Below, in pieces: positions 4,583-34,593 of a stretch of 64,000 bases of DNA; the stretch's first letter is position 1; the number at the start of each line of letters is the position of its first letter. The position numbers and the translations under genes are program-made. The notes under the pieces were generated by a model. That model worked only from the letters and a program-made list of their open reading frames with translations. It did no database searches and was not told where the DNA came from. This DNA comes from Elusimicrobiota bacterium (GTDB taxonomy: Bacteria; Elusimicrobiota; Elusimicrobia; UBA1565; UBA9628): NCBI GenBank assembly GCA_016182905.1, contig JACPFR010000005.1:12185-76184 (forward strand), in the 5' to 3' direction.

Positions 4583-4818
4583 GGAACAGGATGCTATATA
4601 AAACAGCTGTTACACTTCAACGTTTTGTTACATGCTCATCGGCAGCTGTGATTTAAGCCGGCACAAACGCTATACCTTACCCAGCCGCGCTCCTCGACTA
4701 AGTCGCGGTGTATGTAGCCGATCAAGGGCCGGACGGCGGCCTATGTCTGCGTGGACTACGCCTGCGAGCTGCCGACGAGCGACCTGGAGACCTTCAAGGC
4801 CATCCTGGACGGGAAGAG

Positions 4819-5388: not shown

Positions 5389-6596
5389 GACGGGCCGAGC
5401 GGCCGCGCCGGCGGCGCGGCCTTGGCCGTCTCCACCGCGAACGCCACGGCGAGCCTGGCGAATTTCACCGAGTGGGCGGCGCCGGATGCGGCCAAAGTGT
5501 CGCGTTCGGTGTGGATGTTCGGGTTGACCCCGTCGAAGTTCGACTCGAAGACCGCGCTCGCCGGGTAGCCGCTGCGCGTCCATGAGGCGTGGTCGGAACA
5601 GGCGTAGCCGCAGGCCACCTCTCCCCGCCGGGCGCCCGTGTAGGCGTCGGACAGGCGGCCGAGATAGTCGGTCAGCGCCGGCTCGACGTTGTCGGTGACG
5701 AGGAACAGCCTGTCGCCGGAGCCGGCGAAGTTGGTCATGTCGAACTGGATGACGCCGGCGACCGCGCGGCCCTCGGCGCGCCAACGCTTGGCGATGTCTC
5801 CGGACCCGCGCAGGCCGACCTCTTCCGCCGCGTAGCCGATGAACGCGACCGTGCGCCGGGGACGGAAGCCTCCCTCGGCGAGCACGCGCAAGGCCTCGGT
5901 CAGGACGGCGATGCCGGACGCATTGTCGTCGGCGCCGGGCGCGCGCCCCTGGGCCCCCGCGCGGGAGTTGATCGAGTCGAGGTGGCCTCCAAGAACGACG
6001 GTCTCCCCGGACAGGTCCGTGCCGGGGAGAACGGCCATGACCGAGGGCTGCTTCCAGCCCGCGTGTTCGACGAGCTCCACGGCGGCCCCGGGGACGCCCT
6101 TGAGGATCGCGCGCCAGCGCGCGGCCAGGGCGCGCGCCGCGGCGGCGCCGTCCTCGGTCTGATAGAAGCGGTCATGCCGCGTCGAGAGGTCCTCGATCGT
6201 CGCTCTCAGTTCGGACTCTTTCACCGCCGCGGCGAGCGGCCGGACGACGCTCCCCTGATCGACGGTGGGGTTCTCCCCGGCGGGCGCGGCGACGGCCTTA
6301 AGGTCCGTCTCGGCCTCCGCGCGCGTGGCGTGGGCGAAGAATCCTCCGCACTTGTTGAAGCGCTCGTGCATCGCCGACGACAGGACCGGCAGGAGCGCGG
6401 GATCGACGCGGTAGATCGCGAGACGCGCGTCGGACTGGATCGACGCTCCCATCGCTACGCCCGCGGCGGCAAGCCCGGGCAGGTCCGCGCGCGCAAGCGA
6501 GATCCACACCCCCTCGTCCGCCGGTTCCGTCGCCCAGCCCGACGCCGCCACGGCCAGGGCCGCCGTCGCAAGCCGCATCCGCCGCGAGCGGCTCAT
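5385..6596 (-). CDS. M28 family Zn aminopeptidase (secreted)
   Basis: Signal peptide MRLATAALAVAASGWA. M28 motifs HLDS, DDNASG, AEEVGLRGS. Confidence 0.8.
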   Translation of the reverse strand: MSRSRRMRLATAALAVAASGWATEPADEGVWISLARADLPGLAAAGVAMGASIQSDARLAIYRVDPALLPVLSSAMHERFNKCGGFFAHATRAEAETDLKAVAAPAGENPTVDQGSVVRPLAAAVKESELRATIEDLSTRHDRFYQTEDGAAAARALAARWRAILKGVPGAAVELVEHAGWKQPSVMAVLPGTDLSGETVVLGGHLDSINSRAGAQGRAPGADDNASGIAVLTEALRVLAEGGFRPRRTVAFIGYAAEEVGLRGSGDIAKRWRAEGRAVAGVIQFDMTNFAGSGDRLFLVTDNVEPALTDYLGRLSDAYTGARRGEVACGYACSDHASWTRSGYPASAVFESNFDGVNPNIHTERDTLAASGAAHSVKFARLAVAFAVETAKAAPPARPLGPS

Positions 6597-7549
6597 ATTC
6601 CCCGCCCGCTCAACCCGGCTTCGAGCCTGCGCGCGGCGTCAAGCGCCGCGCTCCCGGCCGCGGAGATCCTCGGCGCGGCCGGAACCGGCGGCTTGTACCA
6701 GCATAAGGGACGAACCCCGACCGTGAAGCCCTCCTCGCGGGTGCAGGCGCCCGGACGCGGGTCGCCGAATGCGAAGCTCTCGGCGGCCGGCTTGACGCAA
6801 AGGGCCGATTGGAAGTGGGTGTCCAGCCTGCATTGAGGCGCGGGATGGGCGGCCGACGTCCGAGCCACGCGCGACGGGTCCGGCGCGTCGAACCGGGCGA
6901 GCGCGGCCTGTCCCGACAAGGCCTGCGCGACCTTCGCCATGACGAGCCCTGCCATCGCCGAGCGCGCGCACAGCGCGCGCTGGGATGCCGAATCGAACAC
7001 CACTGAGCAGCGTTTCGCCGCGAACGCGTCGACGCCCGGCCCGGCGCCCGCGCGGAGATTGTCCTTTTCGAGCCAGACGCGGCGATGGCACTTCATGTTG
7101 GCGAAATAGTCCGCCTGTCCCTCCACCGACAGGCCGCGGGCCGGGAAACCTCCGAGGTGATGGCCCATCTCGTGGCAGGCGACCAAGGAGAATCCGTCGG
7201 GCGTGATCGAGGGATGACGCGCCATCCCTCCGAACATGTTGACGATCCAGCGATCGCCGTCGCGGGAGGCCGAGGCGTTGACGGAGCCGTCGTCCCACTT
7301 GCGCCGGATCTCGAGGACGCCGCCCTGCGCGGCGACGATGGGGGCGTAGACCTCCTCCAGGCGATCGAGGATCGCGTCGAATTGGTCCTTGGTCAGTCCG
7401 CCCGCGTCGGCGGCCGACGGCCCGGTCCGGACCGGGATATTGGCCCCGTTCTCCGGGAAATAGCCGGCGCACGCGGCGAAGCCGCGCTGAACGGCGGTCG
7501 AGGGAGACAGGACGGCGGCCAATACTGCGGCGACGAGAGACTTCCTCAT
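6593..7549 (-). CDS. Secreted zinc metalloprotease (HExxH)
   Basis: Start MRKSLVAAVLAAVLS preceded by GGAGGAG RBS. HEMGHHLGG zincin motif. ATGA-coupled to the M28 gene. Confidence 0.65.
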   Translation of the reverse strand: MRKSLVAAVLAAVLSPSTAVQRGFAACAGYFPENGANIPVRTGPSAADAGGLTKDQFDAILDRLEEVYAPIVAAQGGVLEIRRKWDDGSVNASASRDGDRWIVNMFGGMARHPSITPDGFSLVACHEMGHHLGGFPARGLSVEGQADYFANMKCHRRVWLEKDNLRAGAGPGVDAFAAKRCSVVFDSASQRALCARSAMAGLVMAKVAQALSGQAALARFDAPDPSRVARTSAAHPAPQCRLDTHFQSALCVKPAAESFAFGDPRPGACTREEGFTVGVRPLCWYKPPVPAAPRISAAGSAALDAARRLEAGLSGRGI

Positions 7550-8409
7550 TTCACTCCTCCATTTTCGCCCCACCGCGGCGCCAGGGCGTCCGGCGGCGTC
7601 TCGGTCGGGCGCTCATGAGCCCGCGGCTCCAGCCGGACCCAGGTTCGCGGCGGCGAGTAGGGCTGATCGCGGGAAAGGACCCGCGCGTCGGGAAAGCGCG
7701 CGCGAGCGTCGCCCCAGGTCGTCTGGGACCACAGCGACCTTTCCAGCACCGTCATCGGCGCGTCCAGCATGGCGCCCGAAACGGCCCGGCCCGCCGTCGG
7801 AAGCCACAAGCTCTCGGTTTCCCGGTCCCAGAGAACGAAGGCGTCGAGGCCGCTCCAGAGTTCCGGCGAGAAATAGGTGTAGCCGCTCAAGGCGAAGGTG
7901 TGGACGCGCCCGTGGACGCGGCGATCGTAGACCGCGGCCAGATCGGCCAGGGGGCAGAACGCCGCGAAGATTTCCCGGCCGCCGAGCTCGTCGTTGACCA
8001 CTTCGTGACGCTCCAACAGAGACAGCGGATAGATGCGTGTCTCGCCGGCGATGGTCGCCGTCAAAACGCGCTCGCCGGCCTCCAGCCGCTTGCTCGCGCT
8101 CGAGACGGGCTCGAATCGGGGCTCGAGCAGCGCGGGGAAAGCCTCGCGGCCGATGCCGTAATGGAGCTGAGCCGGGCGCAGCCGCGATTCGGTGATGTCG
8201 AAGTTCTGAGCCGCGGCCTTGCCTCCCCACAGCCAACGCCGTCCGCCGGCCTGAAACACCTTGCCGTGATCGACGCTGATCGGCCGCCGGTCCCGTCCGC
8301 GGTTGGCCAAGGCCGCCTCGGGATCGAGGCCCGCGCAGCCGCCCAAAGTCAGCGCCGTCAACGCCAGCGGGAGAGCGGCTGTCAGCGCGACCGTGACCGT
8401 GTTCCTCAT
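7546..8409 (-). CDS. Lipoprotein, degenerate DUF3179-like paralog
   Basis: Lipobox LTLGGC after MRNTVTVALTAALPLALTA. Similar to the 34594..35532 DUF3179 protein, but the CPLC motif is replaced by CPLADL. Alternative ATG at 8445. Confidence 0.55.
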   Translation of the reverse strand: MRNTVTVALTAALPLALTALTLGGCAGLDPEAALANRGRDRRPISVDHGKVFQAGGRRWLWGGKAAAQNFDITESRLRPAQLHYGIGREAFPALLEPRFEPVSSASKRLEAGERVLTATIAGETRIYPLSLLERHEVVNDELGGREIFAAFCPLADLAAVYDRRVHGRVHTFALSGYTYFSPELWSGLDAFVLWDRETESLWLPTAGRAVSGAMLDAPMTVLERSLWSQTTWGDARARFPDARVLSRDQPYSPPRTWVRLEPRAHERPTETPPDALAPRWGENGGVK

Positions 8410-8531
8410 GCGCGAAAGAATATGTCTTTCCACGCGACGCGTCATGAGGCATTCGCTCTAGAAGCGCGGCAGGCGCGCGGCGAATAAAAATAGGAAGTCT
8501 CGCTTCCTCTCGATCTGCTAAAATTCCCCTC

Positions 8532-9787: not shown

Positions 9788-10741
9788 ATGAACGCTTTCA
9801 AGCAATTGAGCCGCTGGCTGGCGCCCGATGCAAACCACGAATCCGCCGATGCTCTCACCCATTACAGCCATTTGCTGGCCAGTTTGTTGACCATGGCCTG
9901 GTTCGTCGAAGCGCGCGACCCTTATACCGGCGGGCATCTGTGGCGCGTGTCGCGTTATGCGCGGCTGCTGGCGGAGGATGCCGGTTACGGCGATGCCGAT
10001 GCGGCGCGGATCAGTCTCGGCGGGTTTTTGCACGATCTGGGAAAAATCGGCGTGCCCGATGCGATCCTGCGCAAGCCTGAACGTCTGACCGACGACGAGT
10101 ATGCGGTCATCAGGACCCACCCGGATATCGGCATGCGCATGCTCGCCGGCCATCCGCTGGCCCGACTCGTCAGCGACGCCGTGTTTTTGCATCACGAGCG
10201 CCCTGACGGCAAGGGTTATCCGCGCGGCCTGGTTGGCGGCGCGATTCCCGAAATGGCGCGCATCGTCGGCATCTGCGATGCGTTTGACGCGATGACCAGC
10301 CATCGCCCTTATCGACCCGGCATGCCGCGCGACAAGGCCGTCGCCGTCATTCGCGAATTTCGCGGAACGCAGTTTGACGCCCGCTTTGCCGACGTCGTCA
10401 TCGCGCTGGGCGCGGCGGGAAGCCTCGACCATGTGATGGGCCATAGCGATACGGGCATCCCGCTGAGGTCGTGCCCCATGTGCGGCCCCACTTTGGTGGT
10501 GCAGCGCGAGCACCGGCGGGGCGATCACATCTACTGCCGCAACTGCAGCGGCGAATTCGTACTGGAAGAAGAAGACAACTTCCTGGTGGCGGCCCCTACC
10601 GGCAAGCAAGGCCGCGCCGTTGACCTGGAACCCGAAGCCGATACGGCGCTGATCGCACGCACGGTACGCGCGGCTGCAGAAGCGTTGCCTATTGCGGATA
10701 TGCTCAGATCTTCAGCCCTGCCGCTCGGAGCCGGTCGATGA
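9788..10741 (+). CDS. HD-GYP domain phosphodiesterase with C-terminal zinc-ribbon
   Basis: HD..LHDLGK..HHERPDGKGYP..DAFDAMTSHRPYR motifs. C-terminal CPMCG...CRNCSG. Confidence 0.85.
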   Translation: MNAFKQLSRWLAPDANHESADALTHYSHLLASLLTMAWFVEARDPYTGGHLWRVSRYARLLAEDAGYGDADAARISLGGFLHDLGKIGVPDAILRKPERLTDDEYAVIRTHPDIGMRMLAGHPLARLVSDAVFLHHERPDGKGYPRGLVGGAIPEMARIVGICDAFDAMTSHRPYRPGMPRDKAVAVIREFRGTQFDARFADVVIALGAAGSLDHVMGHSDTGIPLRSCPMCGPTLVVQREHRRGDHIYCRNCSGEFVLEEEDNFLVAAPTGKQGRAVDLEPEADTALIARTVRAAAEALPIADMLRSSALPLGAGR

Positions 10742-11465: not shown

Positions 11466-11633
11466 TCATGAGACGGGCTTCAATGTCCCGCCCACGCAGC
11501 TGGAGCAGCGATCCTCGACCGGCGCGCAGCGCGGGCACCACAGCTCCCCGCACTTATCGCACTTCCTCCAGCCCGTCTGCCCGGACTCCGGGCTCATGTT
11601 GCAGTGATTGCACGCCAGCGCGTTGTCTTCCAT
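11466..11633 (-). CDS. Cysteine-rich mini-protein, 55 aa, four CxxC pairs (zinc-ribbon-like)
   Basis: Not in the ORF track (<60 aa). Translation by hand: MEDNALACNHCNMSPESGQTGWRKCDKCGELWCPRCAPVEDRCSSCVGGTLKPVS. GGAGG RBS 4 nt upstream. 29 bp after the CMD gene stop. Confidence 0.5.
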   Translation of the reverse strand: MEDNALACNHCNMSPESGQTGWRKCDKCGELWCPRCAPVEDRCSSCVGGTLKPVS

Positions 11634-11662: not shown

Positions 11663-12208
11663 TCAGCCCTTCGTCGCCGGCGCGAACTCCAGCTCCGCGC
11701 CCAGGTTCTTGCCGATTCGTTGAATGAAGTTCCCGGCCGCCACGACGAAGGCGAGCTCGGCGATCTCCTTGGGTGAGAAGTTCCGTTTGAGCGCCTCCAA
11801 GGCCTGGTCATCGGCCTTGATCACTTGCGTGGTCTGGTAGGCGAAGCGGATCACGGCGCGTTCCGCCTCATTGAACGCGGGGTTGTCGAATCCCTGCGGC
11901 CCCAGCAAGGCGATTTGCGCGTCGGTCAGGCCCGCCGCTTTCCCCATCGGGACGTGGTGGCCCTGACAGTAGGCGCACTCGTTGGCGCGGGCGACGGTCA
12001 GGTAGGCGATCTCCCGCACGCGCGGCGTCAGCGAGAGCTTGTTGAAGTAGACATCGAGGAGGCCGCCGAAGGCCTGGGTGACGGGCCCGGAGTGACCGAC
12101 GAGCTTGACGACGTTGGGCACCATTCCGAATCCCTTCTTGAGGTTCTCATAGACCGGCTTGGCTTCGGGAGCTTCCTGTCCTTCGTGAGCGTAGGTCGTT
12201 CGCGGCAT
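11663..12208 (-). CDS. CMD/AhpD-like family protein
   Basis: CAYCQGHH motif and AhpD-like fold signature. Immediately downstream of the DUF2063 gene. Confidence 0.75.
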   Translation of the reverse strand: MPRTTYAHEGQEAPEAKPVYENLKKGFGMVPNVVKLVGHSGPVTQAFGGLLDVYFNKLSLTPRVREIAYLTVARANECAYCQGHHVPMGKAAGLTDAQIALLGPQGFDNPAFNEAERAVIRFAYQTTQVIKADDQALEALKRNFSPKEIAELAFVVAAGNFIQRIGKNLGAELEFAPATKG

Positions 12209-12288
12209 GTCGATTCCTCCTGTACGTCATCCAAGGCGGACGTCGGCGGGTCCGGGACCGAGAGACCCGGACCCGCCGACGGGCCGTC

Positions 12289-13146
12289 TTAACAGCCGCC
12301 CACTTTCGTCATGGGGTCCTTCCGAGTCGGCGGCTCGATTCCTTTGATAAGGCCGCGGGCGACCCAAGATGAGAACCAGCGGCGGACCTCGGCGGCCCCG
12401 GCAACGCCCACCGACTTCGAGGCGCGGGCAAGCACGGCGCCAAGCCGAGCCCCTTCCTTGAGCCGTCGCAGCGTAATCCACTCCAGCCTGGAAATCTCAT
12501 ACACCTTCACCCAGGTCTCATCTCGAAAGAGCAGCAGCCATTGCGCCCGATCATTGCGGAGGATTTTGCCTCCGGCCTTAAGGGGAAGCTCGCGGCGGCG
12601 CCAAAGACGCTCGACGGGCCAATCGACTTTGAGGAGCAGGACCGTCGGATCCAGGATCAGTCTCACGCGCGCCCAATCCTCGTCCCGAATATTTCCGATG
12701 GTTTTAGGATCGAGGGGGAGCAGGCGATCGGCGAAAAGCCGGGTCATGGCGTCCCGCTCGAGCCGGGAGAGGTCCGCCAGGAACGGGTATTTCCGGCCGA
12801 GCGGATGGGAGCGCACGAAGCGAGGAAGGGCCGCGCCTAGATCCGCCAGAGAGGACGACCTCGATGGATTCGAGAGGAGGTAGTCGGCGACGAGAACGCG
12901 AAATTCGTATTCGCCCAGCGTCCTTCTCACGGCGGGGAAATCTGAGGTCAAGGCCTCGTGCAGGCGCAGAAAATAGCCGTCGCCATAGACGCTCAGACGC
13001 GTCGGCGCATCTAGCGGGGGGGGATCTGTGATCCAGCGCAGCGCCGCGGGTCTATTCTTCACGGCCGCCCGCACGCCTTGCGGGTCAGTGAATATCTCTC
13101 GTAAGGATCGCTGGAGACGGGCCAGGTTAGGCGGCGACGGCGGCAT
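12289..13146 (-). CDS. bufC: DUF2063 family protein (MNIO partner, BufC-like)
   Basis: Start MPPSPPNLARLQRSL overlaps the DUF692 gene end by 20 nt. DUF2063-type sequence. The listed N-terminal extension is unsupported. Confidence 0.7.
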   Translation of the reverse strand: MPPSPPNLARLQRSLREIFTDPQGVRAAVKNRPAALRWITDPPPLDAPTRLSVYGDGYFLRLHEALTSDFPAVRRTLGEYEFRVLVADYLLSNPSRSSSLADLGAALPRFVRSHPLGRKYPFLADLSRLERDAMTRLFADRLLPLDPKTIGNIRDEDWARVRLILDPTVLLLKVDWPVERLWRRRELPLKAGGKILRNDRAQWLLLFRDETWVKVYEISRLEWITLRRLKEGARLGAVLARASKSVGVAGAAEVRRWFSSWVARGLIKGIEPPTRKDPMTKVGGC

Positions 13147-13963
13147 CGCGCACCTCCGTGGCCCGCGCCGCTTCGCGCTGAAGCCGCGCAAAGGACGGTA
13201 TCTTGTCATCCCATTCGATGAGCGTCGGCACGCGCCCGAAGCGCCGGATCGCCGCCGCATAGAGCTCCCAAACCGGGTCCGAGACCGGATGATCGTGCGT
13301 GTCGATAAGAAAGCCTCCCTCGTCGGAGTAGCCGGCCAGATGCATCTGCCCTACCCGTTTCAACGGTATGGCGTTGATGTAATCGAGAGCGTCGAAGCCG
13401 TGGTTCACGGCGCTGACGTGGATGTTGTTGACGTCCATCAGTATCCCGCAGTCGGCGCGGGCGGCGATCTCCGCCAGAAACTCCCATTCCGGCATCTCGG
13501 AGTGCCGATAGGTCAGATAGCTGGAGACGTTTTCGATGAGAATCCGGCGGCCGAGGTATTCCTGCACTCGTCTCAGGCGCGCGGCGACATGGTCGACGAC
13601 CGCTTCGGTGTAGGGCAGTGGAAGCAGGTCATGAAGATTCCGCCCGCCGACCCCCGTCCAGCAAAGATGATCGGACACGATGGCGGGCTCGATGATACGG
13701 ATGAGGCTCTTGAGCCGTTTCAGATAGTTCCGGTTCAAAGGATCGGCTGAGCCGATGCTGAGCGAGACGCCGTGAAGCATCACCGGATAGTCGCGGCGGA
13801 CGCGCCCGAGCACCTCGAGGGGCCGTCCCCCTGAGGAGCCGCCCCGCAGTCCCATGTAGTTCTCGGAGTTCACCTCGAACCAGGAGACCGCGGGACGGCG
13901 TGAGAGCACATGATCGTAGTGGGCGGGCCGCAGTCCGAGGCCGACGCCGAGTTCCGGGTTCAT
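13127..13963 (-). CDS. bufB: DUF692/MNIO (multinuclear non-heme iron oxidative) enzyme, BufB/MbnB-like
   Basis: Start MNPELGVGLGLRPAHY with AAGGAGAG RBS. TIM-barrel DUF692 motifs HLSIGS, DHLCW, IENVSSY, MDVNNIHV. Confidence 0.8.
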   Translation of the reverse strand: MNPELGVGLGLRPAHYDHVLSRRPAVSWFEVNSENYMGLRGGSSGGRPLEVLGRVRRDYPVMLHGVSLSIGSADPLNRNYLKRLKSLIRIIEPAIVSDHLCWTGVGGRNLHDLLPLPYTEAVVDHVAARLRRVQEYLGRRILIENVSSYLTYRHSEMPEWEFLAEIAARADCGILMDVNNIHVSAVNHGFDALDYINAIPLKRVGQMHLAGYSDEGGFLIDTHDHPVSDPVWELYAAAIRRFGRVPTLIEWDDKIPSFARLQREAARATEVRDAAVAA

Positions 13964-13986
13964 GTCTCTCCTTGAGGCCGCCGGTC

Positions 13987-14313
13987 CTACTTGCTGCCCA
14001 GGTCCTTCATCGGCTCGGCGCCGGTCTTCGCGGCCTTCTTCTCCGGAGGAGTCAGCGTCCCTCCTTCGATGTTCTCGCAGGACTCCTTGGGCATGTACAG
14101 CCAGCCCTGGCCCTTGCAGGAGTTCTTTCCCGCGCATTCGTGCCCCGGGCCGCCGCATTGCCCGTGGCCGCCGCACTTATTGACGCCGTAGCACTTGACG
14201 TTCTTGTCGCTCTTCTTGGCCTTCGACTCCTTGGCCCAACTCGGCGTCGACACGACCGCCGCTCCGACGATTCCCGCCACCGCCGCCTTCAATAACATGT
14301 TGCCTTTCGCCAT
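13987..14313 (-). CDS. bufA: DUF2282-type secreted Cys-rich RiPP precursor (bufferin BufA1-like)
   Basis: AAGGAGG RBS. Sec signal peptide MAKGNMLLKAAVAGIVGAAVVSTPSWA. Core KCYGVNKCGGHGQCGGPGHECAGKNSCKGQGWLYMPKESCENIEGGTL matches the DUF2282 CYGV...C...CAG...VPKG.CE.I.GG pattern. Confidence 0.8.
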   Translation of the reverse strand: MAKGNMLLKAAVAGIVGAAVVSTPSWAKESKAKKSDKNVKCYGVNKCGGHGQCGGPGHECAGKNSCKGQGWLYMPKESCENIEGGTLTPPEKKAAKTGAEPMKDLGSK

Positions 14314-14403
14314 TTGTTCAGCGCCTCCTTTTCTTATTGATGAATGCCTGACCCACCGATTTTAGTGCGTTTGGACGCGGAAACGTTACATGCCCGAGGT
14401 GAA

Positions 14404-15144
14404 TTATTTGTCGCAACGCGCCGTCGAGCCCCCGCGCTCATTCCGCTCTCCCGTCCAGGGGTCGACGCCGTCCCCGACGGGCATCCGGAGAAGATCCTCG
14501 ATGATGAGGTCTTGAATGGCCGCGCGTGAATGGGGCGCGGCGCTCTCGCCTGAGAACAGGCGTCGCGCGAGCGCCTTCAGGTCGCCGAAGGTGTCCACAT
14601 CGGAGCGCACGGACAGGAGCCGGAAGCTTTCGCCGCGCAGGCGCTCGAGTGTTCGATTGAGAACATCGGGGCCCGACCACTCCATCTTCGCGAAGAGGCG
14701 CGGCATGGGCGCGCGCAGACCGATGAGATAATAGCCGCCGTCCTCGGCGGGGCCCAGGACGGCCTGGACGTCATCGAGGCGCGCGAAGGCCTGGCGCAAA
14801 ATATCGGGCTCCAAGTCGGGGCAGTCGCTGCCGATGACGACGACCTTCTCGGCGCCCGCGCGAAAGGCCTTGTCGAAGGCCGCGACGAGGCGCGCGCCGA
14901 GGTCGCCTTCCGCCTGCGGGAACCACGGCGGCGCGTCCTCGAGCCAGGCCAGGCCGGGGCGTTCGGGGTGCGGCTCGTAAGCGATCGAGACGGCCGCCTC
15001 GCTCGTCAGCCGGGCGCAGGCGACCGTATCCCGCACGAAGGCTTCGTAGACGCGGGCGACCTGCGAGGCGGAGAGAGGAATCTGGAGACGAGTCTTGACC
15101 TTCCCAGGGACCGGCGCCTTGACGAAAAGGATCAGCGAGTTCAT
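14404..15144 (-). CDS. TIGR04282-type rSAM/selenodomain-associated transferase 1 (DUF2064)
   Basis: Start MNSLILFVKAPVPGKVKTRL, ATGA-coupled to the upstream GT2 gene. Family hallmark N-terminus. The listed upstream extension is an artefact. Confidence 0.7.
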   Translation of the reverse strand: MNSLILFVKAPVPGKVKTRLQIPLSASQVARVYEAFVRDTVACARLTSEAAVSIAYEPHPERPGLAWLEDAPPWFPQAEGDLGARLVAAFDKAFRAGAEKVVVIGSDCPDLEPDILRQAFARLDDVQAVLGPAEDGGYYLIGLRAPMPRLFAKMEWSGPDVLNRTLERLRGESFRLLSVRSDVDTFGDLKALARRLFSGESAAPHSRAAIQDLIIEDLLRMPVGDGVDPWTGERNERGGSTARCDK

Positions 15145-15824
15145 GAATAAAGCCTCCTCAGCCTCTCCGGCGAGACCCCGGCCTTGAAGAGCGCGATGAT
15201 GACGACATTTCTCAGGGCGTTGAACACGGGACCGTTGCGCTCGTAGCGCCGCACCGAGGTCAGCACGGCATCCTCCATGACGACGACGGGGCCCAGCCTC
15301 GCGAGCATGGGGAGCAGGTAATACTCCTCCATGATGCTGACGGGCGGGTATCCTCCGACGCGCACGTAGTCTTCCCGCCTGCAGGCGACCGCCTGATCGC
15401 CGTGCGGCACCCCGGTCTTCCGCGAGCGCCAATGCCCCAAAGCGGCGATGAGCCGGTAGATCGGCCTCGCCGAATCGAAGTCGAGGCGGTAGGCGGTCGC
15501 GCCCGGCCGCGGCTTGGCGGCCCAGGCGTCGAGCAGCGCGCCGAGCCAGCCTCCGGGCAGGCGGGTGTCGGCGTGCAGGAACAGAAGAAGGTCTCCGGCC
15601 GCGGCAAGAGCGCCTCGATGCATCTGCACCGCCCGTCCGCGCGCGGGAGACTCGATCAGCTTGTCGGCGACGCGGCGGGCGATCTCGATCGTGCCGTCCG
15701 TGCTGCCGCCGTCGGCCACGATGATCTCGATGTCGCCTTTGCCGGCGGTCAGGCGCAGGCGCGCGACCGCCTCCTCCAGGCGCCGGCGTTCGTTGACGGT
15801 CGGGATGACGACGGAGACCTTCAT
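15141..15824 (-). CDS. Glycosyltransferase family 2, TIGR04283-type rSAM-associated transferase 2
   Basis: Start MKVSVVIPTVNE. GT2 motifs. ATGA overlaps on both sides. Confidence 0.7.
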   Translation of the reverse strand: MKVSVVIPTVNERRRLEEAVARLRLTAGKGDIEIIVADGGSTDGTIEIARRVADKLIESPARGRAVQMHRGALAAAGDLLLFLHADTRLPGGWLGALLDAWAAKPRPGATAYRLDFDSARPIYRLIAALGHWRSRKTGVPHGDQAVACRREDYVRVGGYPPVSIMEEYYLLPMLARLGPVVVMEDAVLTSVRRYERNGPVFNALRNVVIIALFKAGVSPERLRRLYS

Positions 15825-16540: not shown

Positions 16541-16998
16541 CGCGCGACCTCCGCGAGCGAGCGGCGCGCGGCCGCGCTCACCGACTCGTTCTCATCGGCG
16601 AGCGCGGCCGAAAGGTACTGCGCGGCGGCCGGGTCGCGGCGCTCACCGAGGGCCTGGGCAGTCTTGACCCGGACCCACCAGTGACGGTCGCGCAAGGAAC
16701 GGGAGAGCGGGAGCAAGGCGTCTTTGCGCGACACCCGCCCCAGGGCCCGCGCCGCGTTGGCGCGCACTTCCCACCTCGGGTCGCCCAGCGCCTTGACCAA
16801 CGGCCAGTAGGAGCCGTCGGGGCGGCGTTCTCCGAGTTGGAACGCCGCCCGCTGACGGATATCGGATGAGGCGTCCGTCAGGGCGGCGGCCAGGCGCGCC
16901 TCGTCCCAGGACGCGTCCGGACGCGCCCCGGGTCCGCAGGCGGCCAGGGCCGTCAGCAGCATGTACGGGAAAGACGACTCGGCCGTCATGCGGCGCAT
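16537..16998 (-). CDS. HEAT-repeat (PBS lyase-like) protein
   Basis: Repeated ...VRANAARALG... / ...VRVKTAQALG... units. Start at M74/M77 of the listed ORF, with ATGA overlap to the arsS stop. Confidence 0.55.
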   Translation of the reverse strand: MRRMTAESSFPYMLLTALAACGPGARPDASWDEARLAAALTDASSDIRQRAAFQLGERRPDGSYWPLVKALGDPRWEVRANAARALGRVSRKDALLPLSRSLRDRHWWVRVKTAQALGERRDPAAAQYLSAALADENESVSAAARRSLAEVAR

Positions 16999-17876
16999 GA
17001 CCCGCCTCCGAGCACGCAGAACGAGGCGCAGTGCGGGTGCCGCAGGGCGACCGGACGCCACGACTCCCGCACGGTCCGGCCGAGCTCGAAGCGCGCGTCG
17101 TAGGGGATGAGCGTGCAGGCGACGACGGCCGGGCGCTCCGCGCCGCGGCGCTTGACCACCATGCGCGAGGAGGCGCACATCACCGACTCGGGCGACTTGC
17201 CGAGCAGACCCCAGCACTCGGCGGTGATCTCGGGAAGCTCGCCGGAAGCACCCATCTCGGGGAACACCGTCAGCTCGACCTCCCGGCCGATCGCGCGGCG
17301 GTACCCTTCCCGCGCGGCGGCTTCATCCTCGTCGACGAAGGTCCGCCCGGCCACGGAGGCGCTAAATCCCGAGTCGAGCAGCCACCGCAGGCCGGCCACG
17401 GCCTTGTCGAAGGCGCCGGCGCCGCGTTCGGCGTCGTGGACGGCGGCGGTGTGATGGTCGAGCGAGACGCGCAGGCGCAAACCGCGATCGTGCCGCTCGA
17501 GCAAGGCGAGCAGCTCCGCCTTGCGGTTCGTCATCGGCGCCATCGCGTTCGTGAGAATCAAGACCGAAAAGCCCCGCTCCAGGGACTCCTCGGCCATGGC
17601 GAGAAGATCGGGGTTCATGAACGGCTCGCCGCCGGTGAATCCGATCTCTGTCGCTCCCATCTCCCGGGCCTCCTCGAGAAAGGGCCGGATCTCGGCCGAC
17701 TTCAGATACTCGAGACGATCATTGCGCGGGGAGGACTCGATGTAGCAATTCGCGCATTGGATGTTGCACCGGGTCCCCGTGTTGAACCACAGCGTTTTCA
17801 ACGCGCCGGGCGGCACGACGGCGCGGGCCTTTCCCTGGGCCGTGGTCTCGGCGTCGGCCCACTTAGCAGCAGGCAT
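16986..17876 (-). CDS. arsS: Radical SAM protein, arsenosugar-biosynthesis ArsS-like
   Basis: CNIQCANCY (CxxxCxxC) rSAM motif. Adjacent to arsM and the rSAM-associated transferases 1/2. Confidence 0.7.
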   Translation of the reverse strand: MPAAKWADAETTAQGKARAVVPPGALKTLWFNTGTRCNIQCANCYIESSPRNDRLEYLKSAEIRPFLEEAREMGATEIGFTGGEPFMNPDLLAMAEESLERGFSVLILTNAMAPMTNRKAELLALLERHDRGLRLRVSLDHHTAAVHDAERGAGAFDKAVAGLRWLLDSGFSASVAGRTFVDEDEAAAREGYRRAIGREVELTVFPEMGASGELPEITAECWGLLGKSPESVMCASSRMVVKRRGAERPAVVACTLIPYDARFELGRTVRESWRPVALRHPHCASFCVLGGGSCAA

Positions 17877-18909
17877 CGCCGTTCCTCGCTTTCGTCGAGA
17901 ACGGCATGTTCGTCCCGCAGCCCGGGAAGATGCCGAAATGCTTCGTCGTGTCGCCGAAGAAGTCGAAGTGGCGGCGGTAGCGGCTCTTTTCGAGCATCGA
18001 CGCGGTGTTGCCGCACACCGTCATGATCCGCCCGGCCTCGAAGCGGTGATGGCCGTCGAGCTGAAACGCCTGCGGCGCGTCCGCGATCGTCCCTTTATAC
18101 CTCACGGCCTGGCCGTAGTCTTCGCAGGCGGGCTCAAGACCCGTGAGCTTGAACAGCCGGTAGGTCGCCGAGTAAAAGCCGATGTGGCCGGCGCGCTCCC
18201 GGATCGGGCCCTTGTCGAGAGCCAGCGGCCGCGACTCGACGAGCCGCGGGTCGGCGAAGCCCGCGCTCTTGGCGAGAGGAAGAAAATCGCTCCAATACAA
18301 CGCGCCTCCCAGGCATTCTCCGTACAGCACGGGGTCGTTCCTCAATTCCTGAGGTACGCGTCGGTCGGCGTAGACGTCAGAGAAATACATCTCGCCGCCT
18401 TCCTTGAGAACGCGCCGGGCCTGGCGCAGGACAGCCGCCTTGTCGCGCGCGAGGTTGATCACGCAGTTGGACACGACCAGGTCGAACGAGGCGTCCTTGA
18501 GGCCGATCTCATCGAGGCGCGAGATGTCGCCTTTGATGAACTCCACGTTCCCGTAGCCGAACGCCTTCGCGTGATGCGCGCGGTTGCGCTCGGCGACCTC
18601 GAGCTGCTCGTCGGTCATGTCGACGCCGGTCACGCGTCCCGCTCGGCCGACCAGTTGGGAGAGGACATAGCAGTCCCGTCCGGAGCCGGAGCCAAGGTCG
18701 AGGACGCTCAGACCCGTCAGCTCGCTCGGGATGGTCAGGCCGCAGCCGTAGTAGCGGGAGACGACCTCCTCGCTCACCCTCGATAGCGCCGCGCGCACGG
18801 CGCGCGGCAGGTCCGAAGGCGAGCAGCAGGCGTCGGTTTTCAGGTCGGCGCCGCTTTTCAGGGTCTTTCCGTAATAGTCGCGGACTCCGGCTTCGATGTC
18901 GGCGGGCAT
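17863..18909 (-). CDS. arsM: Arsenite S-adenosylmethionine methyltransferase ArsM
   Basis: VLDLGSGSGRDCY SAM motif I. Conserved Cys DACCSP, NCVINL and a C-terminal Cys. Confidence 0.85.
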   Translation of the reverse strand: MPADIEAGVRDYYGKTLKSGADLKTDACCSPSDLPRAVRAALSRVSEEVVSRYYGCGLTIPSELTGLSVLDLGSGSGRDCYVLSQLVGRAGRVTGVDMTDEQLEVAERNRAHHAKAFGYGNVEFIKGDISRLDEIGLKDASFDLVVSNCVINLARDKAAVLRQARRVLKEGGEMYFSDVYADRRVPQELRNDPVLYGECLGGALYWSDFLPLAKSAGFADPRLVESRPLALDKGPIRERAGHIGFYSATYRLFKLTGLEPACEDYGQAVRYKGTIADAPQAFQLDGHHRFEAGRIMTVCGNTASMLEKSRYRRHFDFFGDTTKHFGIFPGCGTNMPFSTKARNGDACC

Positions 18910-18941: not shown

Positions 18942-19934
18942 TCACAAAAGATGTAGATGCGTTAAAGTCCAGTAGGCCGCCACGCCGATCACTCCGGCGG
19001 TCGGCAAGGTCACGAGCCAGGCCAGCGCGATCTGGCCGACCATGGCCCGGTTCACTCCGGCCGACCCCTTGCGCAGGCCCATGCCCATGATCGCGGAGCT
19101 CGACACATGGGTCGTCGAGACCGGGAAGCCGTGGAGGGCGGTGCCCACGACCATCGCGGTCGTGGCGAGATTGGCCGCGAAGCCCTCCAGATGATCCATC
19201 TTGGCGACCTTGTGCGCGAGGGTGTCGGTGACCGCGAGCCCCAGGATGATCCCGCCCGCCGCGTTGGCGACGGCGAGGACGAGGAAGAACCAGCGCGGCG
19301 CCACCGTCGCGCTGGGATCGAGCACGGCGTAAAAGAAGAAGCCGAGACCGGCGATCTTCGGGGTGTCGTTCAAGCCCCGCGCGAAGCCGCTCGAAATCGC
19401 GCTCGCCCAATGCGCCCAGTGGCAATTAAGACAGTACTGTTCGCGGCAGAGCCAGTTCAATCCGCGGAACAACAGCCAGGCCGTGCCGAACGCGGCGACG
19501 GGCGAAAGCAGCAACGGTAAGGCGACTTTCTTCCACACGCTTCCCCAAAGCACCTGGTCGAAGCCGAAGGCGTACAGGCCGGTCAGGAGCGTGGCGCCCA
19601 CGATGGCGTGCGTGGTCGAGACCGGCATGCCGATACGCGTCGACAGCAGGACCCAGCCGACCGCCCCGGCGAGGATGGCGAGCGCGAAGGTCTGGTTGAG
19701 CTGAACCTGAGGGGAGAGCATTCCCGTGGTGAAGAGCAAGGTCATCTTCACGGCCCAGGCGGAGGCGAGCACAGCGCCGGCCGCGACGGCCAGAGAAGCA
19801 ACGACGACGGCCTTCTTGTAATCCGACTCTCCGCTCCCGACCAAGGTCGCGATCGACTTGGAGATGTCGTTGGCGCCGTTGGCGAAGGCGAGGCCGGCGG
19901 CGGTGGTCAGTCCCACGACGGCGACGATGTTCAT
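18942..19934 (-). CDS. Inorganic phosphate transporter, PiT family
   Basis: GANDISKSIATLVGSG PHO4 signature, present twice. Confidence 0.85.
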   Translation of the reverse strand: MNIVAVVGLTTAAGLAFANGANDISKSIATLVGSGESDYKKAVVVASLAVAAGAVLASAWAVKMTLLFTTGMLSPQVQLNQTFALAILAGAVGWVLLSTRIGMPVSTTHAIVGATLLTGLYAFGFDQVLWGSVWKKVALPLLLSPVAAFGTAWLLFRGLNWLCREQYCLNCHWAHWASAISSGFARGLNDTPKIAGLGFFFYAVLDPSATVAPRWFFLVLAVANAAGGIILGLAVTDTLAHKVAKMDHLEGFAANLATTAMVVGTALHGFPVSTTHVSSSAIMGMGLRKGSAGVNRAMVGQIALAWLVTLPTAGVIGVAAYWTLTHLHLL

Positions 19935-21286
19935 TTGATCTCCACGGTCATTAAGTGAGTCCGTCCGGGCCGCCGTTCGTTACACGCGTTGTAAAGACCT
20001 CGGCCGAGCAGGCCGTAGACCACGGCGTATTCGCCGATCCACAGCCAGCGCCACCACGGCAGGCGAGCCGACGATTCTCTCAGCGCGGGATCGATCGCGA
20101 AATACATGAAGCCGACGATCCAGGCCCAGGCCAAGGCGGCCGGCGAGGGAGTCAGGAGGGCGAACGGCAAGGCCCAGAGCACGTACCAGGGCTGGACCAC
20201 GGGACTGGCAAGGAGGACGGCGAGGATCATCCCGCACAGGTAGCGTACGGCGTCCTCGCCGCAGCGCCGGGCCCATGGCAGGCTGAACGTGATGACGATC
20301 AGTACGAGGAGGAGCCGTCGCAAGGAGGGGGATTCGACGAGAGTCGACAAGGCGGCGTACAGGCTGGGATTAGCCAGCCAGTCGGATGCGAACGCGGCGA
20401 TGCCGCTCTCAGGTACGGCGTGCAGCGCCGCGGCAAGACCGGAAACGACCGGAATCAGGCCGAAGCATGCGACTGAGAGAAAAACCACCGCGTAGCGCGG
20501 GCGCCGAAGGAACAGCCATGGCAGCAGGACGATCGGGACGACTTTCACCAGCGCCGCCGCCGCCCATACCGCGGCGCCGATTCCGCGGCGCCCGGATTCC
20601 CACAGGTCGAGGCCGGCAAGGAGCCCGAGGATCATCAGGGAGTCGAGATGCCCCGCCGCCGAGAACTCGACGAGCACGAGGGGATGCCAGGCGTAGACCG
20701 CGGCCCAAGCGACGGACAAACCGCGGCGGCGCAGAAGCCGCATGAGCAGGACGCAGGCAAGGAGGTCGCAGAGGGAGAAAAATCCCTTTTGGGCTCGCGC
20801 GTCGGCCGTGACGGCGGCGACAATACGGAAAGCCGCCAGGGCCAACGGGGGATAGATCGCGGTCAGGCCCTGATTGTTGATCCGTTCGTCCTGTCCTTGG
20901 CGAAGGAACGCGAGATCCGGAGAAGACGGCGGGAGAAGATAGGGATTGCGTCCCGCGTTGGCGACCCGGCCCTCCCATGAATATCGATAGGCGTCGGTCG
21001 ATGGGGTCGGGGGAACGAGAACGAGCGCAAGACGACAGAAAGCCGCGACGACGAGGATAAGCGCCTTCCGATCGCCCTCGTCCTTCCCAGGATGAGGCTC
21101 ATGCGCAAGCCTTCGCCAGGTCAGCCACGACACGCAGGTCCAGAGGGCCAAAACGCACAGGAACGCCGGAACATGGTCCACCAGCGGAGCCCGGAGGGCC
21201 AACGCGACGGCGCCGAGCGCCGAGGCAAGGCCGGCTCGAAGCAGAATACGGGTCACCAGAGTGAGTCCGCGCCGGCGGAGGAACAT
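19931..21286 (-). CDS. Integral-membrane glycosyltransferase, GT87/DUF2029-like
   Basis: ~10 TM helices. ATGA-coupled to the PiT gene. Confidence 0.6.
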   Translation of the reverse strand: MFLRRRGLTLVTRILLRAGLASALGAVALALRAPLVDHVPAFLCVLALWTCVSWLTWRRLAHEPHPGKDEGDRKALILVVAAFCRLALVLVPPTPSTDAYRYSWEGRVANAGRNPYLLPPSSPDLAFLRQGQDERINNQGLTAIYPPLALAAFRIVAAVTADARAQKGFFSLCDLLACVLLMRLLRRRGLSVAWAAVYAWHPLVLVEFSAAGHLDSLMILGLLAGLDLWESGRRGIGAAVWAAAALVKVVPIVLLPWLFLRRPRYAVVFLSVACFGLIPVVSGLAAALHAVPESGIAAFASDWLANPSLYAALSTLVESPSLRRLLLVLIVITFSLPWARRCGEDAVRYLCGMILAVLLASPVVQPWYVLWALPFALLTPSPAALAWAWIVGFMYFAIDPALRESSARLPWWRWLWIGEYAVVYGLLGRGLYNACNERRPGRTHLMTVEIK

Positions 21287-34564: not shown

Positions 34565-34593
34565 CGATCCCGCGTCCGGCGGGACTCACCTCT

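What the first reader, a model, noticed from the sequence alone, without database searches (positions are those of the whole stretch)
12289..14313. Bufferin-type RiPP operon: DUF2282 Cys-rich secreted precursor + DUF692/MNIO enzyme + DUF2063 partner
Three co-directional genes with RBSs and overlapping ends encode a recognisable bufferin-type set. The first is a 108-aa Sec-signal-peptide protein whose core KCYGVNKCGGHGQCGGPGHECAGKNSCKGQGWLYMPKESCENIEGGTL fits the DUF2282 pattern. The second is a DUF692 TIM-barrel (MNIO, MbnB-like) enzyme. The third is a DUF2063 protein. This is the gene triad of the bufferin class of copper-binding ribosomal peptides, in which Cys residues are converted to thiooxazoles. 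Here it sits inside an arsenic/mercury-rich locus rather than a classic copper locus, and the usual DoxX partner is absent.
Basis: partly seen in the sequence, partly recalled or inferred. Interest (0 to 1): 0.85.

Follow-up and report, generated by a model that had tools for sequence, protein, structure and literature searches.

The report
Buf2-type bufferin metal-binding peptide operon
Three minus-strand genes in an Elusimicrobia genome form an ordinary member of the known bufferin family of secreted metal-binding peptides; what is unusual is that they sit in an arsenic/mercury gene island conserved in related genomes.

Summary
On the minus strand, 12289-14313 carries bufA (13987-14313, 108 aa), bufB (13127-13963, 278 aa) and bufC (12289-13146, 285 aa).

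All three pass curated HMM cut-offs:
- bufA: Pfam DUF2282, and NCBIfam BufA2 at 67.7 bits (cut-off 60).
- bufB: MNIO_BufB at 384 bits (cut-off 310).
- bufC: DUF2063 at 63.5 bits.

The precursor is the six-Cys Buf2 (BUF_6/12Cys) type, not the four-Cys DUF2282/Buf1 type. The founding Caulobacter buf2 operon also lacks DoxX, so the missing DoxX is no anomaly.

Thousands of such clusters are published. GenBank already holds these proteins (MBI2384642-645) under domain names. This is a new member of a known kind.

The arsenic/mercury setting is real. It recurs in Elusimicrobia-type relatives, including a 50.6% GC genome where merR-merTP-merA runs straight into bufABC. Only 2 of about 79 relatives from other phyla show even a weak trace of it.

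Other clade-specific features:
- a C-terminal PMKDxGS tail on BufA;
- an AhpD-like gene downstream;
- a conserved promoter-like motif upstream of bufA;
- a conserved hairpin after bufC;
- relatives in which bufA survives without bufBC.

Copper sequestration is the default function. A mercury or arsenic role is possible but untested.

The parts
14364..14390 (-). Candidate promoter of bufA: TGTAACGTTTCCGCGTCCAAACGCACT, followed by AAAAT. It ends 50 nt upstream of the bufA ATG. The GTAAC element resembles the -35 of ECF-sigma promoters.
   Evidence: The motif is unique in the window, with 0 matches in 100 shuffles. The same 27-nt pattern lies upstream of the DUF2064-adjacent bufA in L005/L006/L088 and L089. 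The sigma-70 consensus scan found nothing. Promoter function is inferred, not tested.
14233..14313 (-). bufA signal peptide, residues 1-27: MAKGNMLLK / AAVAGIVGAAVV / STPSWA, with predicted SPase I cleavage after Ala27.
   Evidence: The n-, h- and c-region layout and the hydropathy peak at residues 6-15 are shown. An A/S-x-A site aligns across homologues. No SignalP run was possible.
13987..14232 (-). bufA core, residues 28-108 (81 aa). It holds six invariant Cys (41, 47, 53, 60, 66, 79) and a C-terminal tail ...EPMKDLGSK.
   Evidence: NF050166 BufA2 scores 67.7 bits against a cut-off of 60, and PF10048 scores 27.6 against 22.4. The six Cys are invariant in 45 homologues. The tail motif was found.
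13127..13963 (-). bufB, an MNIO (DUF692) maturase of 278 aa.
   Evidence: NF050167 MNIO_BufB scores 384 bits against a cut-off of 310. PF05114 scores 368 bits. PDB 3BWW matches at E=1.7e-45. The metal-ligand motifs HG, DH, EN, DvNN, HlaG, DTHD and EWDD are all kept.
12289..13146 (-). bufC, the partner protein of 285 aa: a DUF2063 N-domain followed by an RRE-type C-domain ('PME-type 1').
   Evidence: PF09836 scores 63.5 bits against 27.2. A family profile hits PDB 3DEE (NGO1945) over both domains at E=2e-4.
12241..12281 (-). GC-rich hairpin just after the bufC stop codon and before the AhpD-like gene. It has a 16-bp perfect stem and no U-tract. It may terminate, attenuate or stabilise the transcript.
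   Evidence: The 91-nt junction segment that contains the hairpin folds at -49 kcal/mol, z = -4.15. Equivalent stems with base changes occur in L089 and L001. Its function is inferred.
11663..12208 (-). Carboxymuconolactone-decarboxylase/AhpD-like protein of 181 aa with a CxxC motif (C78, C81). It is cytoplasmic. It is a clade-specific neighbour, not a general bufferin partner.
   Evidence: PF02627 scores 49.4 bits. Copies that are at least 81% identical and have upstream flank follow a bufA or bufC gene. Copies at 75% identity or less never do.
11466..11633 (-). A 55-aa ORF with eight Cys in four CxxC pairs (zinc-ribbon-like), with a strong RBS. It is conserved near the AhpD-like gene in relatives.
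   Evidence: Sequence. tblastn identity is 81-92% in L001, L090/L091 and L127, downstream of the AhpD-like gene, and 57% in L093/L094, where it lies upstream of it. It has no family hit.
14404..15144 (-). The upstream gene, a TIGR04282 (DUF2064) 'arsenosugar biosynthesis' glycosyltransferase-like protein. It ends 90 nt before bufA.
   Evidence: TIGR04282 scores 189.8 bits against 134. In L001 and L087 this gene abuts or overlaps bufA.
15141..15824 (-). TIGR04283 family GT2 glycosyltransferase. Its end overlaps the start of the DUF2064 gene by 4 nt.
   Evidence: TIGR04283 scores 215.7 bits against 182. Coordinates were checked.

Best explanation
This is a Buf2-type (BUF_6/12Cys, 'Cys-Lys' captophorin) bufferin biosynthetic operon, bufA-bufB-bufC, in an Elusimicrobia genome.

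Proposed mechanism:
1. The 108-aa precursor is made in the cytoplasm with a Sec signal peptide.
2. BufB is an O2-dependent multinuclear non-haem iron enzyme. Held on the substrate by BufC (DUF2063 plus RRE-type domain), it converts the four central cysteines (C47, C53, C60, C66) into 5-thiooxazoles. Each conversion costs 4 Da.
3. The Sec system exports the peptide and signal peptidase cuts after Ala27.
4. C41 and C79 form a disulfide.
5. The resulting 81-residue periplasmic mini-protein sequesters thiophilic metal ions.

Shown here: the gene content, the family membership, the conserved Cys and iron-ligand residues, and the genomic context.

Inferred from the characterised Caulobacter Buf1/Buf2 and related systems: the chemistry, the export route and the metal binding.

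The default metal is copper. The conserved mer/ars-type setting makes Hg(II) and/or As(III) plausible additional or alternative targets in this lineage.
For: - Curated HMM hits all exceed cut-off: BufA2 67.7>60, BufB 384>310, DUF2063 63.5>27.2.
- Six Cys are invariant in 45 homologues, all of which hit BufA2. The ~155-aa relatives are duplicated 12-Cys forms, exactly as the family is defined (PMC11626156; PMC12452194).
- BufB keeps every MNIO ligand motif. Aligned to 3BWW, it reads E-W-D-D where 3BWW reads E-R-D-F. That retains the proposed catalytic Asp and carries the Phe-to-Asp change reported for Cys-Lys (Buf2) MNIOs (PMC13097082). Of 85 BufB relatives, 70 share E-x-D-D.
- The BufC profile reaches 3DEE over both domains.
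- The signal-peptide layout is present.
- The gene order is A-B-C, each gene has an RBS, and bufB/bufC overlap by 20 nt.
- A low-confidence AF2 model places C41 in the first strand and C79 in a short helix. This matches the published disulfide geometry.
Against: - No chemistry or expression data exist for this locus.
- The AF2 model is weak (mean pLDDT 58).
- The signal peptide was judged by eye and hydropathy only.
- Nothing here identifies the metal. There are no copper-specific genes nearby (no CopA or CueO), and the regulator next door is MerR-like.
- Relatives keep bufA without adjacent bufBC (L087, L090). In some genomes, therefore, the peptide may act unmodified or be modified from a distance.
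- MNIO enzymes need O2, and the lifestyle of this uncultured organism is unknown.
Confidence: 0.85

Rival explanations
1. The chemistry is the same, but the job differs. In this Elusimicrobia lineage the bufferin is a component of a mercury/arsenic defence island. It buffers periplasmic Hg(II) and/or As(III) rather than copper.
For: - bufABC lies within 8 kb of MerR(3-Cys)-MerTP-CopZ-like genes. It directly follows PHO4-ArsM-like-rSAM-TIGR04283-TIGR04282 genes.
- The same association recurs in L001, L005 and L089.
- It also recurs, with a different gene order, in L008 (50.6% GC against 66%). There merR-merTP-merA (TIGR02053 523.6>454) and a Trx-like gene are followed co-directionally by bufA2-bufB-bufC.
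- The BufA copies that follow the DUF2064 gene share a private C-terminal PMKDxGS tail.
- Published MerC|Buf2 fusions already hint at mercury (PMC12452194).
Against: - Synteny is not function, and metal-resistance genes commonly cluster in islands.
- Of about 79 BufB loci from other phyla, only two show a trace of these neighbours (L009, L071).
- The Elusimicrobia locus L003 has bufABC with YceI and no such island.
- bufA appears to have its own promoter-like element, and a hairpin follows bufC.
- The window lacks MerA proper.
- No bufferin has been shown to bind Hg or As.
Confidence: 0.25
2. It is a DUF2282/Buf1-type bufferin cluster, that has lost its DoxX gene.
For: Pfam PF10048 (DUF2282, renamed BufA1 in newer releases) matches above its gathering score, 27.6 against 22.4. 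GenBank names the protein 'DUF2282 domain-containing'.
Against: - Buf1 is defined by four conserved Cys. This protein and 45 homologues have six, with 12-Cys duplicated relatives.
- The NCBIfam BufA2 equivalog is the only NCBIfam hit for the precursor, and all 45 homologues match it.
- BufB carries the Cys-Lys-class Asp.
- No sigma/NrsF pair flanks the operon.
- The founding Caulobacter buf2 operon lacks DoxX (PMC11626156).
Confidence: 0.05
3. It is an HvfABC/oxazolin-type cluster, an EGKCG-repeat virulence-factor type.
For: BufB gives a strong sub-threshold hit to HvfB (254.9 bits). BufC's only NCBIfam hit is HvfC (45.9 bits). The best solved relative, 3BWW, belongs to that branch.
Against: - Both hits are below cut-off (360 and 142), while BufB is above its own.
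- The precursor has no EGKCG repeats.
- The enzyme has Asp where the Lys-Cys class has Phe.
Confidence: 0.03
4. BufA acts mainly as an unmodified Cys/His-rich periplasmic metal-binding protein, and bufBC are dispensable passengers.
For: In L087 and L090/L091 the tailed bufA is followed directly by the AhpD-like gene, with no bufB or bufC between them. The literature notes many precursor genes that are not linked to an MNIO gene (PMC12452194).
Against: - In this window bufB and bufC are intact and carry RBSs, and the bufB and bufC reading frames overlap by 20 nt.
- All ligand residues are conserved.
- Among complete genomes, none of 864 with Buf2 precursors lacks an MNIO gene (PMC12452194, Table 3). 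Orphan genes are therefore probably served from another locus.
Confidence: 0.07

Closest known systems
Caulobacter vibrioides buf2 operon (bufA2-bufB2-bufC2, CCNA_03001-02999): Buf2 / BUF_6/12Cys bufferins (PMC11626156, PMC12452194)
   Same: - Gene order A-B-C with no DoxX.
- Sec-signal precursor with six conserved Cys.
- BufB-type MNIO enzyme with a DUF2063-RRE partner.
- The NCBIfam BufA2 and BufB equivalogs are matched above cut-off.
   Different: - The host phylum is Elusimicrobia, which is not named in the text of the papers read here.
- The precursor has a Lys-rich N-terminal stretch and a private C-terminal PMKDxGS tail.
- Caulobacter buf2 is SigF-regulated and copper-induced (PMC11626156); here the neighbours are arsenic- and mercury-type genes and no SigF/NrsF pair was found.
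- An AhpD-like gene lies downstream.
Buf1 / DUF2282 bufferins (C. vibrioides buf1ABCD; the 'gig' gold-induced operons)
   Same: The enzyme-partner pair and the thiooxazole chemistry are the same. The predicted fold is similar (two short strands, a short helix and a terminal disulfide). The Pfam DUF2282 model cross-matches.
   Different: Buf1 has four Cys, often has DoxX (bufD), and often has sigma and NrsF genes. None of these features is present here.
Captophorins with EGKCG repeats: oxazolin (HvfABC), fontiphorin, gonophorin (PMC13097082, PMC11252979)
   Same: These also use an MNIO plus a PME-type 1 partner, install 5-thiooxazoles and are linked to copper. 3BWW and 3DEE are the solved relatives of BufB and BufC.
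   Different: Their precursors are repeat peptides. The enzyme has Phe at the FonB-250 site, where this BufB has Asp. The HvfB and HvfC cut-offs are not reached.
MerC|Buf1 and MerC|Buf2 fusion proteins in mercury-detoxification clusters (PMC12452194)
   Same: They link a bufferin domain to mercury-handling genes.
   Different: Here the link is by neighbourhood (MerR-MerTP; in L008 merR-merTP-merA-bufABC), not by fusion. It also includes arsenic-type genes, which none of the papers found here mentions.

Membership tests
Buf2 (BUF_6/12Cys) bufferin cluster | The precursor matches the BufA2 family model above its curated cut-off. | tested here: met
   NF050166 scores 67.7 bits against 60, E=7e-19. 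All 45 aligned homologues match it.
Buf2 (BUF_6/12Cys) bufferin cluster | Six conserved Cys, or twelve in duplicated forms. | tested here: met
   C41, C47, C53, C60, C66 and C79 are invariant in 45 sequences. The ~155-aa relatives repeat the domain.
Buf2 (BUF_6/12Cys) bufferin cluster | An N-terminal Sec (or lipoprotein) signal peptide on the precursor. | tested here: met
   The n-, h- and c-regions are present, the hydropathy maximum is 2.5 at residues 11-21, and an SWA|K site is conserved as AxA in homologues. This was judged without SignalP.
Buf2 (BUF_6/12Cys) bufferin cluster | An adjacent MNIO (DUF692) enzyme of the BufB type with intact iron ligands. | tested here: met
   NF050167 scores 384 against 310. 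The ligand motifs align with 3BWW, TglH and MbnB.
Buf2 (BUF_6/12Cys) bufferin cluster | The Cys-Lys-class enzyme signature: the catalytic Asp is kept, and Asp replaces Phe at the FonB-Phe250 site. | tested here: met
   E250-W-D252-D253 aligns to E-R-D-F of 3BWW. Of 85 relatives, 70 read E-x-D-D. The criterion comes from PMC13097082.
Buf2 (BUF_6/12Cys) bufferin cluster | [quoted passage not shown] | tested here: met
   PF09836 scores 63.5 bits on residues 32-111. The family profile matches both domains of 3DEE at E=2e-4. The protein is 285 aa. The RRE fold itself was not modelled.
Buf2 (BUF_6/12Cys) bufferin cluster | The central Cys are converted to 5-thiooxazoles (-4 Da each, ~305 nm absorbance), with a disulfide between the terminal Cys. 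| not testable with these tools
   This needs expression and MS/UV/NMR. The predicted product is 8460.92 Da, against 8479.06 Da unmodified.
Buf2 (BUF_6/12Cys) bufferin cluster | Copper induction and copper binding. | not testable with these tools
   The context here is mer/ars-type, with no copper-specific gene nearby.
Buf1 (DUF2282) bufferin cluster | The Pfam PF10048 match. | tested here: met
   27.6 bits against a gathering score of 22.4.
Buf1 (DUF2282) bufferin cluster | Four conserved Cys in the core. | tested here: not met
   Six invariant Cys are present.
Buf1 (DUF2282) bufferin cluster | Frequent DoxX (bufD) and sigma/NrsF genes in the cluster. | tested here: not met
   None is found among the ORFs scanned between 8.5 and 23.7 kb. 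The ECF sigma-like ORFs lie 10 and 20 kb away.
HvfABC / oxazolin (EGKCG) cluster | An EGKCG-repeat precursor, with HvfB and HvfC equivalog scores reached. | tested here: not met
   There are no repeats. HvfB scores 254.9 against 360 and HvfC scores 45.9 against 142.
mer operon (as context) | MerR with the three metal-binding Cys, a MerT/MerP transporter, and MerA reductase. | tested here: inconclusive
   The MerR-like protein has C-x35-C-x8-C spacing, as Tn501 C82/C117/C126 (my own knowledge), but scores 120 against 150.85. MerTP scores 87 against 180. No MerA proper is present in the window (382 against 454). A true MerA is present in relative L008.

The most novel reading that the evidence does not exclude
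A clade of Elusimicrobia has recruited a Buf2 bufferin into a mercury/arsenic defence module. The BufA variant carries a conserved C-terminal PMKDxGS tail and sits behind the TIGR04283/TIGR04282 'arsenosugar' genes. It is paired with an AhpD-like CxxC protein in place of DoxX. In one relative it is transcribed after merR-merTP-merA. On this reading, thiooxazole metallophores would buffer Hg(II) and/or As(III) in the periplasm, extending the class beyond copper.
Probability: 0.2. Interest if true: 0.6.

Novelty: new member of a known kind. Interest (0 to 1): 0.3.

Why it matters
As a bufferin cluster it adds little. The family is the largest known group of MNIO-modified peptides and is now named automatically by NCBI's models.

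Its value is as a test case for an open question stated in the bufferin papers: which metals do thiooxazole metallophores handle besides copper? Here the cluster is tied across deeply diverged Elusimicrobia to mercury-transport genes and arsenic-methylation-type genes, with mercury reductase itself in relative L008. It also carries a lineage-specific tail on the peptide.

That gives a concrete, cheap experiment: express the three genes, weigh the peptide, and titrate it with Cu, Hg and As. A positive result for Hg or As would broaden the function of the class.

Tried and rejected
- **AF2 model of BufA.** The model from a 45-sequence alignment came out at mean pLDDT 58. It was too weak for a fold search, so none was run. 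Only the secondary-structure layout was used.
- **BufC against PDB.** phmmer with the single sequence found nothing useful. A 24-sequence profile was needed to reach 3DEE.
- **Promoter and terminator scan.** The sigma-70 scan found no promoter. It found only chance-level terminators (2 against 2.9 expected). The promoter-like motif came from aligning the upstream regions of relatives instead.
- **AhpD-like gene as a general bufferin partner replacing DoxX.** I rejected this. None of the 80 genome loci from the BufB scan has it next to bufC. Copies at 75% identity or less have no buf genes nearby. In L087 and L090 it follows bufA without bufBC. It belongs to the island, not to the bufferin core.
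- **Arsenic-type neighbours outside Elusimicrobia.** Only L009 (a DUF2064 gene 6 kb away, with unrelated genes between) and L071 (GT2 and DUF2064 8 kb away on the other strand) showed any. This is too weak to generalise.
- **MerA in the window.** The 505-aa flavoprotein at 37672-39189 is a PRK06370-type oxidoreductase, not MerA.
- **Literature link between bufferin/DUF2282 and arsenic.** I found none.
- **Foreign island.** Base composition shows no sign of one.
Full report
**What is in the sequence**

All genes of the finding lie on the minus strand.

- bufA is 13987-14313 (108 aa). It has an ATG start with AGGAGG upstream.
- After a 23-nt spacer containing GGAG comes bufB, 13127-13963 (278 aa). 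The mechanical ORF reaches 14176. The HMM and the homologues start at the ATG at 13963.
- bufC is 12289-13146 (285 aa). It overlaps the end of bufB by 20 nt and has its own GGAGG.

Third-position GC is 0.73-0.88, as in neighbouring genes.

The precursor reads MAKGNMLLKAAVAGIVGAAVVSTPSWA | KESKAKKSDKNVKCYGVNKCGGHGQCGGPGHECAGKNSCKGQGWLYMPKESCENIEGGTLTPPEKKAAKTGAEPMKDLGSK. It has a basic n-region, a hydrophobic h-region and an S-W-A cleavage motif. Six Cys lie at residues 41, 47, 53, 60, 66 and 79.

**Family assignment**

- BufA matches Pfam PF10048 (DUF2282) at 27.6 bits (gathering score 22.4). Its only NCBIfam hit is NF050166, 'BufA2 family periplasmic bufferin-type metallophore', at 67.7 bits (cut-off 60).
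- BufB matches PF05114 at 368 bits and NF050167 'MNIO family bufferin maturase' at 384 bits (cut-off 310). The HvfB, ApyH, MbnB and ChrH models all fall below their cut-offs.
- BufC matches PF09836 (DUF2063) at 63.5 bits.

An alignment of 45 homologues shows all six Cys invariant, along with V44, N45, G62, G68, G70, G84 and G85. Relatives of about 155 aa carry the domain twice (12 Cys). All 45 match BufA2.

This is the published definition of the Buf2 / BUF_6/12Cys family. The Caulobacter buf2 operon is bufA2-B2-C2 without a bufD/DoxX gene. Its core has six Cys. The first and last Cys are unmodified and probably disulfide-bonded, and the four central ones each carry -4.03 Da (PMC11626156).

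**Enzyme and partner**

Against solved structures, BufB is closest to 3BWW (E=1.7e-45). TglH and MbnB follow. The metal-ligand motifs align: mlHGv, sDHl, iEN, mDvNN, mHlaG, DTHD and iEWDD.

In the 3BWW alignment, E-W-D-D of BufB lies over E-R-D-F. [quoted passage not shown] There, 'Cys-Lys' (BufA2-type) MNIOs are reported to have Asp, modelled as contacting the substrate Lys (PMC13097082). K67 follows C66 and is nearly invariant.

Of 85 BufB relatives, 70 read E-x-D-D.

BufC alone finds nothing in the PDB. A 24-sequence family profile reaches 3DEE (NGO1945), the archetypal DUF2063-plus-RRE partner. Collinear matches cover both domains at E=2e-4.

An AlphaFold2 model of BufA is of low confidence (mean pLDDT 58). 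It shows a strand at 38-42 (with C41), a strand at 71-75 and a short helix at 76-81 (with C79). This matches the layout described for bufferins, with the disulfide between the first strand and the helix (PMC11626156). I did not run a fold search on such a weak model.

**How common it is**

The best were only 55-66% identical and spread over many phyla.
- The literature counts thousands of Buf1 and Buf2 bufferins, and 864 complete genomes with Buf2 precursors (PMC12452194).
- The exact proteins of this window are in GenBank from an Elusimicrobia MAG:
  - MBI2384645.1, 'DUF2282 domain-containing'
  - MBI2384644.1, 'DUF692 domain-containing'
  - MBI2384643.1, 'putative DNA-binding domain-containing'
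  - MBI2384642.1, 'carboxymuconolactone decarboxylase family'

The object is therefore a new member of a known kind.

**Surroundings**

Upstream on the same strand:

- GT87 (19931-21286).
- A PHO4-type transporter (18942-19934).
- An ArsM-like methyltransferase (17863-18909). It is below the NCBIfam cut-offs. It does carry Cys at 28/29, 56, 149 and 199, with the spacing of the four catalytic Cys of ArsM as I recall it from CmArsM.
- A radical-SAM protein (16986-17876), which is not ArsS.
- A HEAT-repeat protein and a hydrolase.
- A TIGR04283 glycosyltransferase (15141-15824; 215.7>182).
- A TIGR04282/DUF2064 protein (14404-15144; 189.8>134).

Divergent from this block are a MerR-family regulator, MerTP, a CopZ-N-like protein and HMA proteins.

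- The regulator's Cys spacing, C-x35-C-x8-C, equals that of Tn501 MerR C82/C117/C126 (my own knowledge).
- Its HMM score is below cut-off.

There is no MerA proper in the window.

Downstream of bufC lie an AhpD/CMD-like CxxC protein (11663-12208) and a 55-aa eight-Cys ORF (11466-11633).

**Is the setting conserved?**

Yes, within the lineage.

- L001/L002, L005/L006/L088 and L089 repeat the order: (MerR-MerTP-CopZ | GT87-PHO4-...)-GT2-DUF2064-bufA-bufB-bufC-CMD.
- L008 is an Elusimicrobia MAG of only 50.6% GC, with BufB 66% identical. The same gene sets are present but rearranged. merR-merTP-merA (TIGR02053, 523.6>454) and a thioredoxin-like gene are followed on the same strand by bufA2-bufB-bufC. 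Next come a divergent AhpC/TSA gene and an ECF sigma. After those come PHO4, an rSAM/ArsM fusion, GT2, DUF2064, DUF547 and VTT.
- Another Elusimicrobia locus, L003, has only YceI-bufABC.
- Of about 79 loci from other phyla, only L009 and L071 show a distant DUF2064 or GT2 gene.

The linkage is real but lineage-restricted. Metal-resistance genes often cluster, so this is suggestive and not proof of a shared function.

**Clade-specific details**

1. The AhpD-like gene is not a general bufferin partner. Copies that are at least 81% identical and have upstream flank follow a bufA or bufC gene. In L087 and L090/L091 the order is DUF2064-bufA-CMD with no bufB or bufC. More distant copies have no buf genes nearby.
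2. The BufA copies that follow DUF2064 end in a conserved tail, PMK[DN]xGS[KQRH]. This holds for the window, L001, the first copy in L005, L087, L089 and L090. L008 has PMKKMSGQ. The second BufA of L005 (directly before bufB) and the island-less L003 copy lack the tail. Eleven of 120 homologues carry it. I have no function for it.
3. The 90-nt gap before bufA holds TGTAACGTTTCCGCGTCCAAACGCACTAAAAT. The 27-nt pattern is unique in the window (0 of 100 shuffles). It recurs upstream of the equivalent bufA in L005/L088 and L089. Its GTAAC element recalls ECF-type -35 boxes (my own knowledge). Caulobacter buf operons are SigF-dependent (PMC11626156). Where DUF2064 abuts bufA (L001, L087, L090), the motif is absent.
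4. A 16-bp GC hairpin sits right after the bufC stop (12241-12281). The 91-nt junction segment that contains it folds at -49 kcal/mol, z = -4.15. It is kept with base changes in L089 and L001. It has no U-tract.

Points 3 and 4 suggest that bufABC can be expressed as its own unit inside the island. Neither has been tested.

**Mechanism**

The steps are as set out under the best explanation. Gene content, family membership, conserved residues and context are shown by the sequence. The chemistry, the export route and the metal binding are inferred from the characterised Caulobacter system (PMC11626156, PMC13097082).

Copper is the metal by precedent. Published MerC|Buf fusions (PMC12452194), together with the mer/ars setting here, keep Hg(II) and As(III) open. 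I put about 0.2-0.25 on a primarily Hg/As role.

**Verdict**

The novelty is low: a new member of a known kind. The context and the tail make the locus a reasonable test case for the metal range of bufferins, which earns moderate-to-low interest (0.3).

Noticed in passing
L008 6628-11642 (Elusimicrobia MAG DAHZHT010000002.1): merR, merTP, a bona fide merA (TIGR02053 523.6>454) and a small thioredoxin-like gene are followed co-directionally by bufA2-bufB-bufC. A bufferin cluster appears to be appended to a mer operon.
   Followed up: partly
L087 6590-7546; L090 6598-7540; L091: A tailed BufA2 precursor gene lies between the DUF2064 gene and the AhpD-like gene with no bufB or bufC. The precursor is retained in the arsenic-type operon without its local maturase.
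   Followed up: partly
window 13990-14016 (C-terminus of BufA) and homologues: A conserved C-terminal tail, PMK[DN]xGS[KQRH], occurs only on BufA2 copies that follow the DUF2064 gene. Eleven of 120 homologues carry it. Its function is unknown.
   Followed up: partly
window 16986-18909 (-); L005 3566-6076; L008 14128-16653: An ArsM-like methyltransferase and a radical-SAM protein (not ArsS; best hit is the Rv1681 family) are separate, overlapping genes here. In relatives they form a single 836-841-aa rSAM-methyltransferase fusion, only about 33-36% identical.
   Followed up: no
window 24653-26440 (+): One 595-aa reading frame combines ECF sigma regions 2 and 4, a hydrophobic segment, NHL beta-propeller repeats and a C-terminal HMA metal-binding domain. 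It is either an unusual fusion or two genes that the ORF finder has run together.
   Followed up: no
window 29527-29627 (-): A TPP riboswitch (67.9 bits, gathering 54.3) lies directly upstream of a TonB-dependent receptor gene (27340-29484).
   Followed up: no
window 49184-62953 (+): A giant 4589-aa ORF shows only weak fn3 and bacterial Ig-like domain matches. It is probably a huge surface protein.
   Followed up: no
window 11466-11633 (-): A 55-aa ORF with four CxxC pairs and a strong RBS is 81-92% identical in L001, L090 and L127, downstream of the AhpD-like gene, and 57% in L093/L094, where it lies upstream of it. It has no family assignment.
   Followed up: partly
window 37672-39189 (+), 36305-37051 (+): A MerA-like flavoprotein of the PRK06370.1-3 type (813 bits; MerA model 382<454) follows a DUF547 gene. 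DUF547 also follows the arsenic-type operon in L008.
   Followed up: partly
window 3587-5784 (-), 32790-33416 (+): Further stress-related genes: ChrB (a chromate-resistance regulator) next to a CMD/sestrin-like protein, and a third AhpD-like CMD protein. Two DUF3179 genes are also present (7546-8445, 34360-35532).
   Followed up: no
window 9788-10741 (+), 21308-22147 (-): Two HD-GYP-type (HD_5) domain proteins flank the metal island on either side.
   Followed up: no
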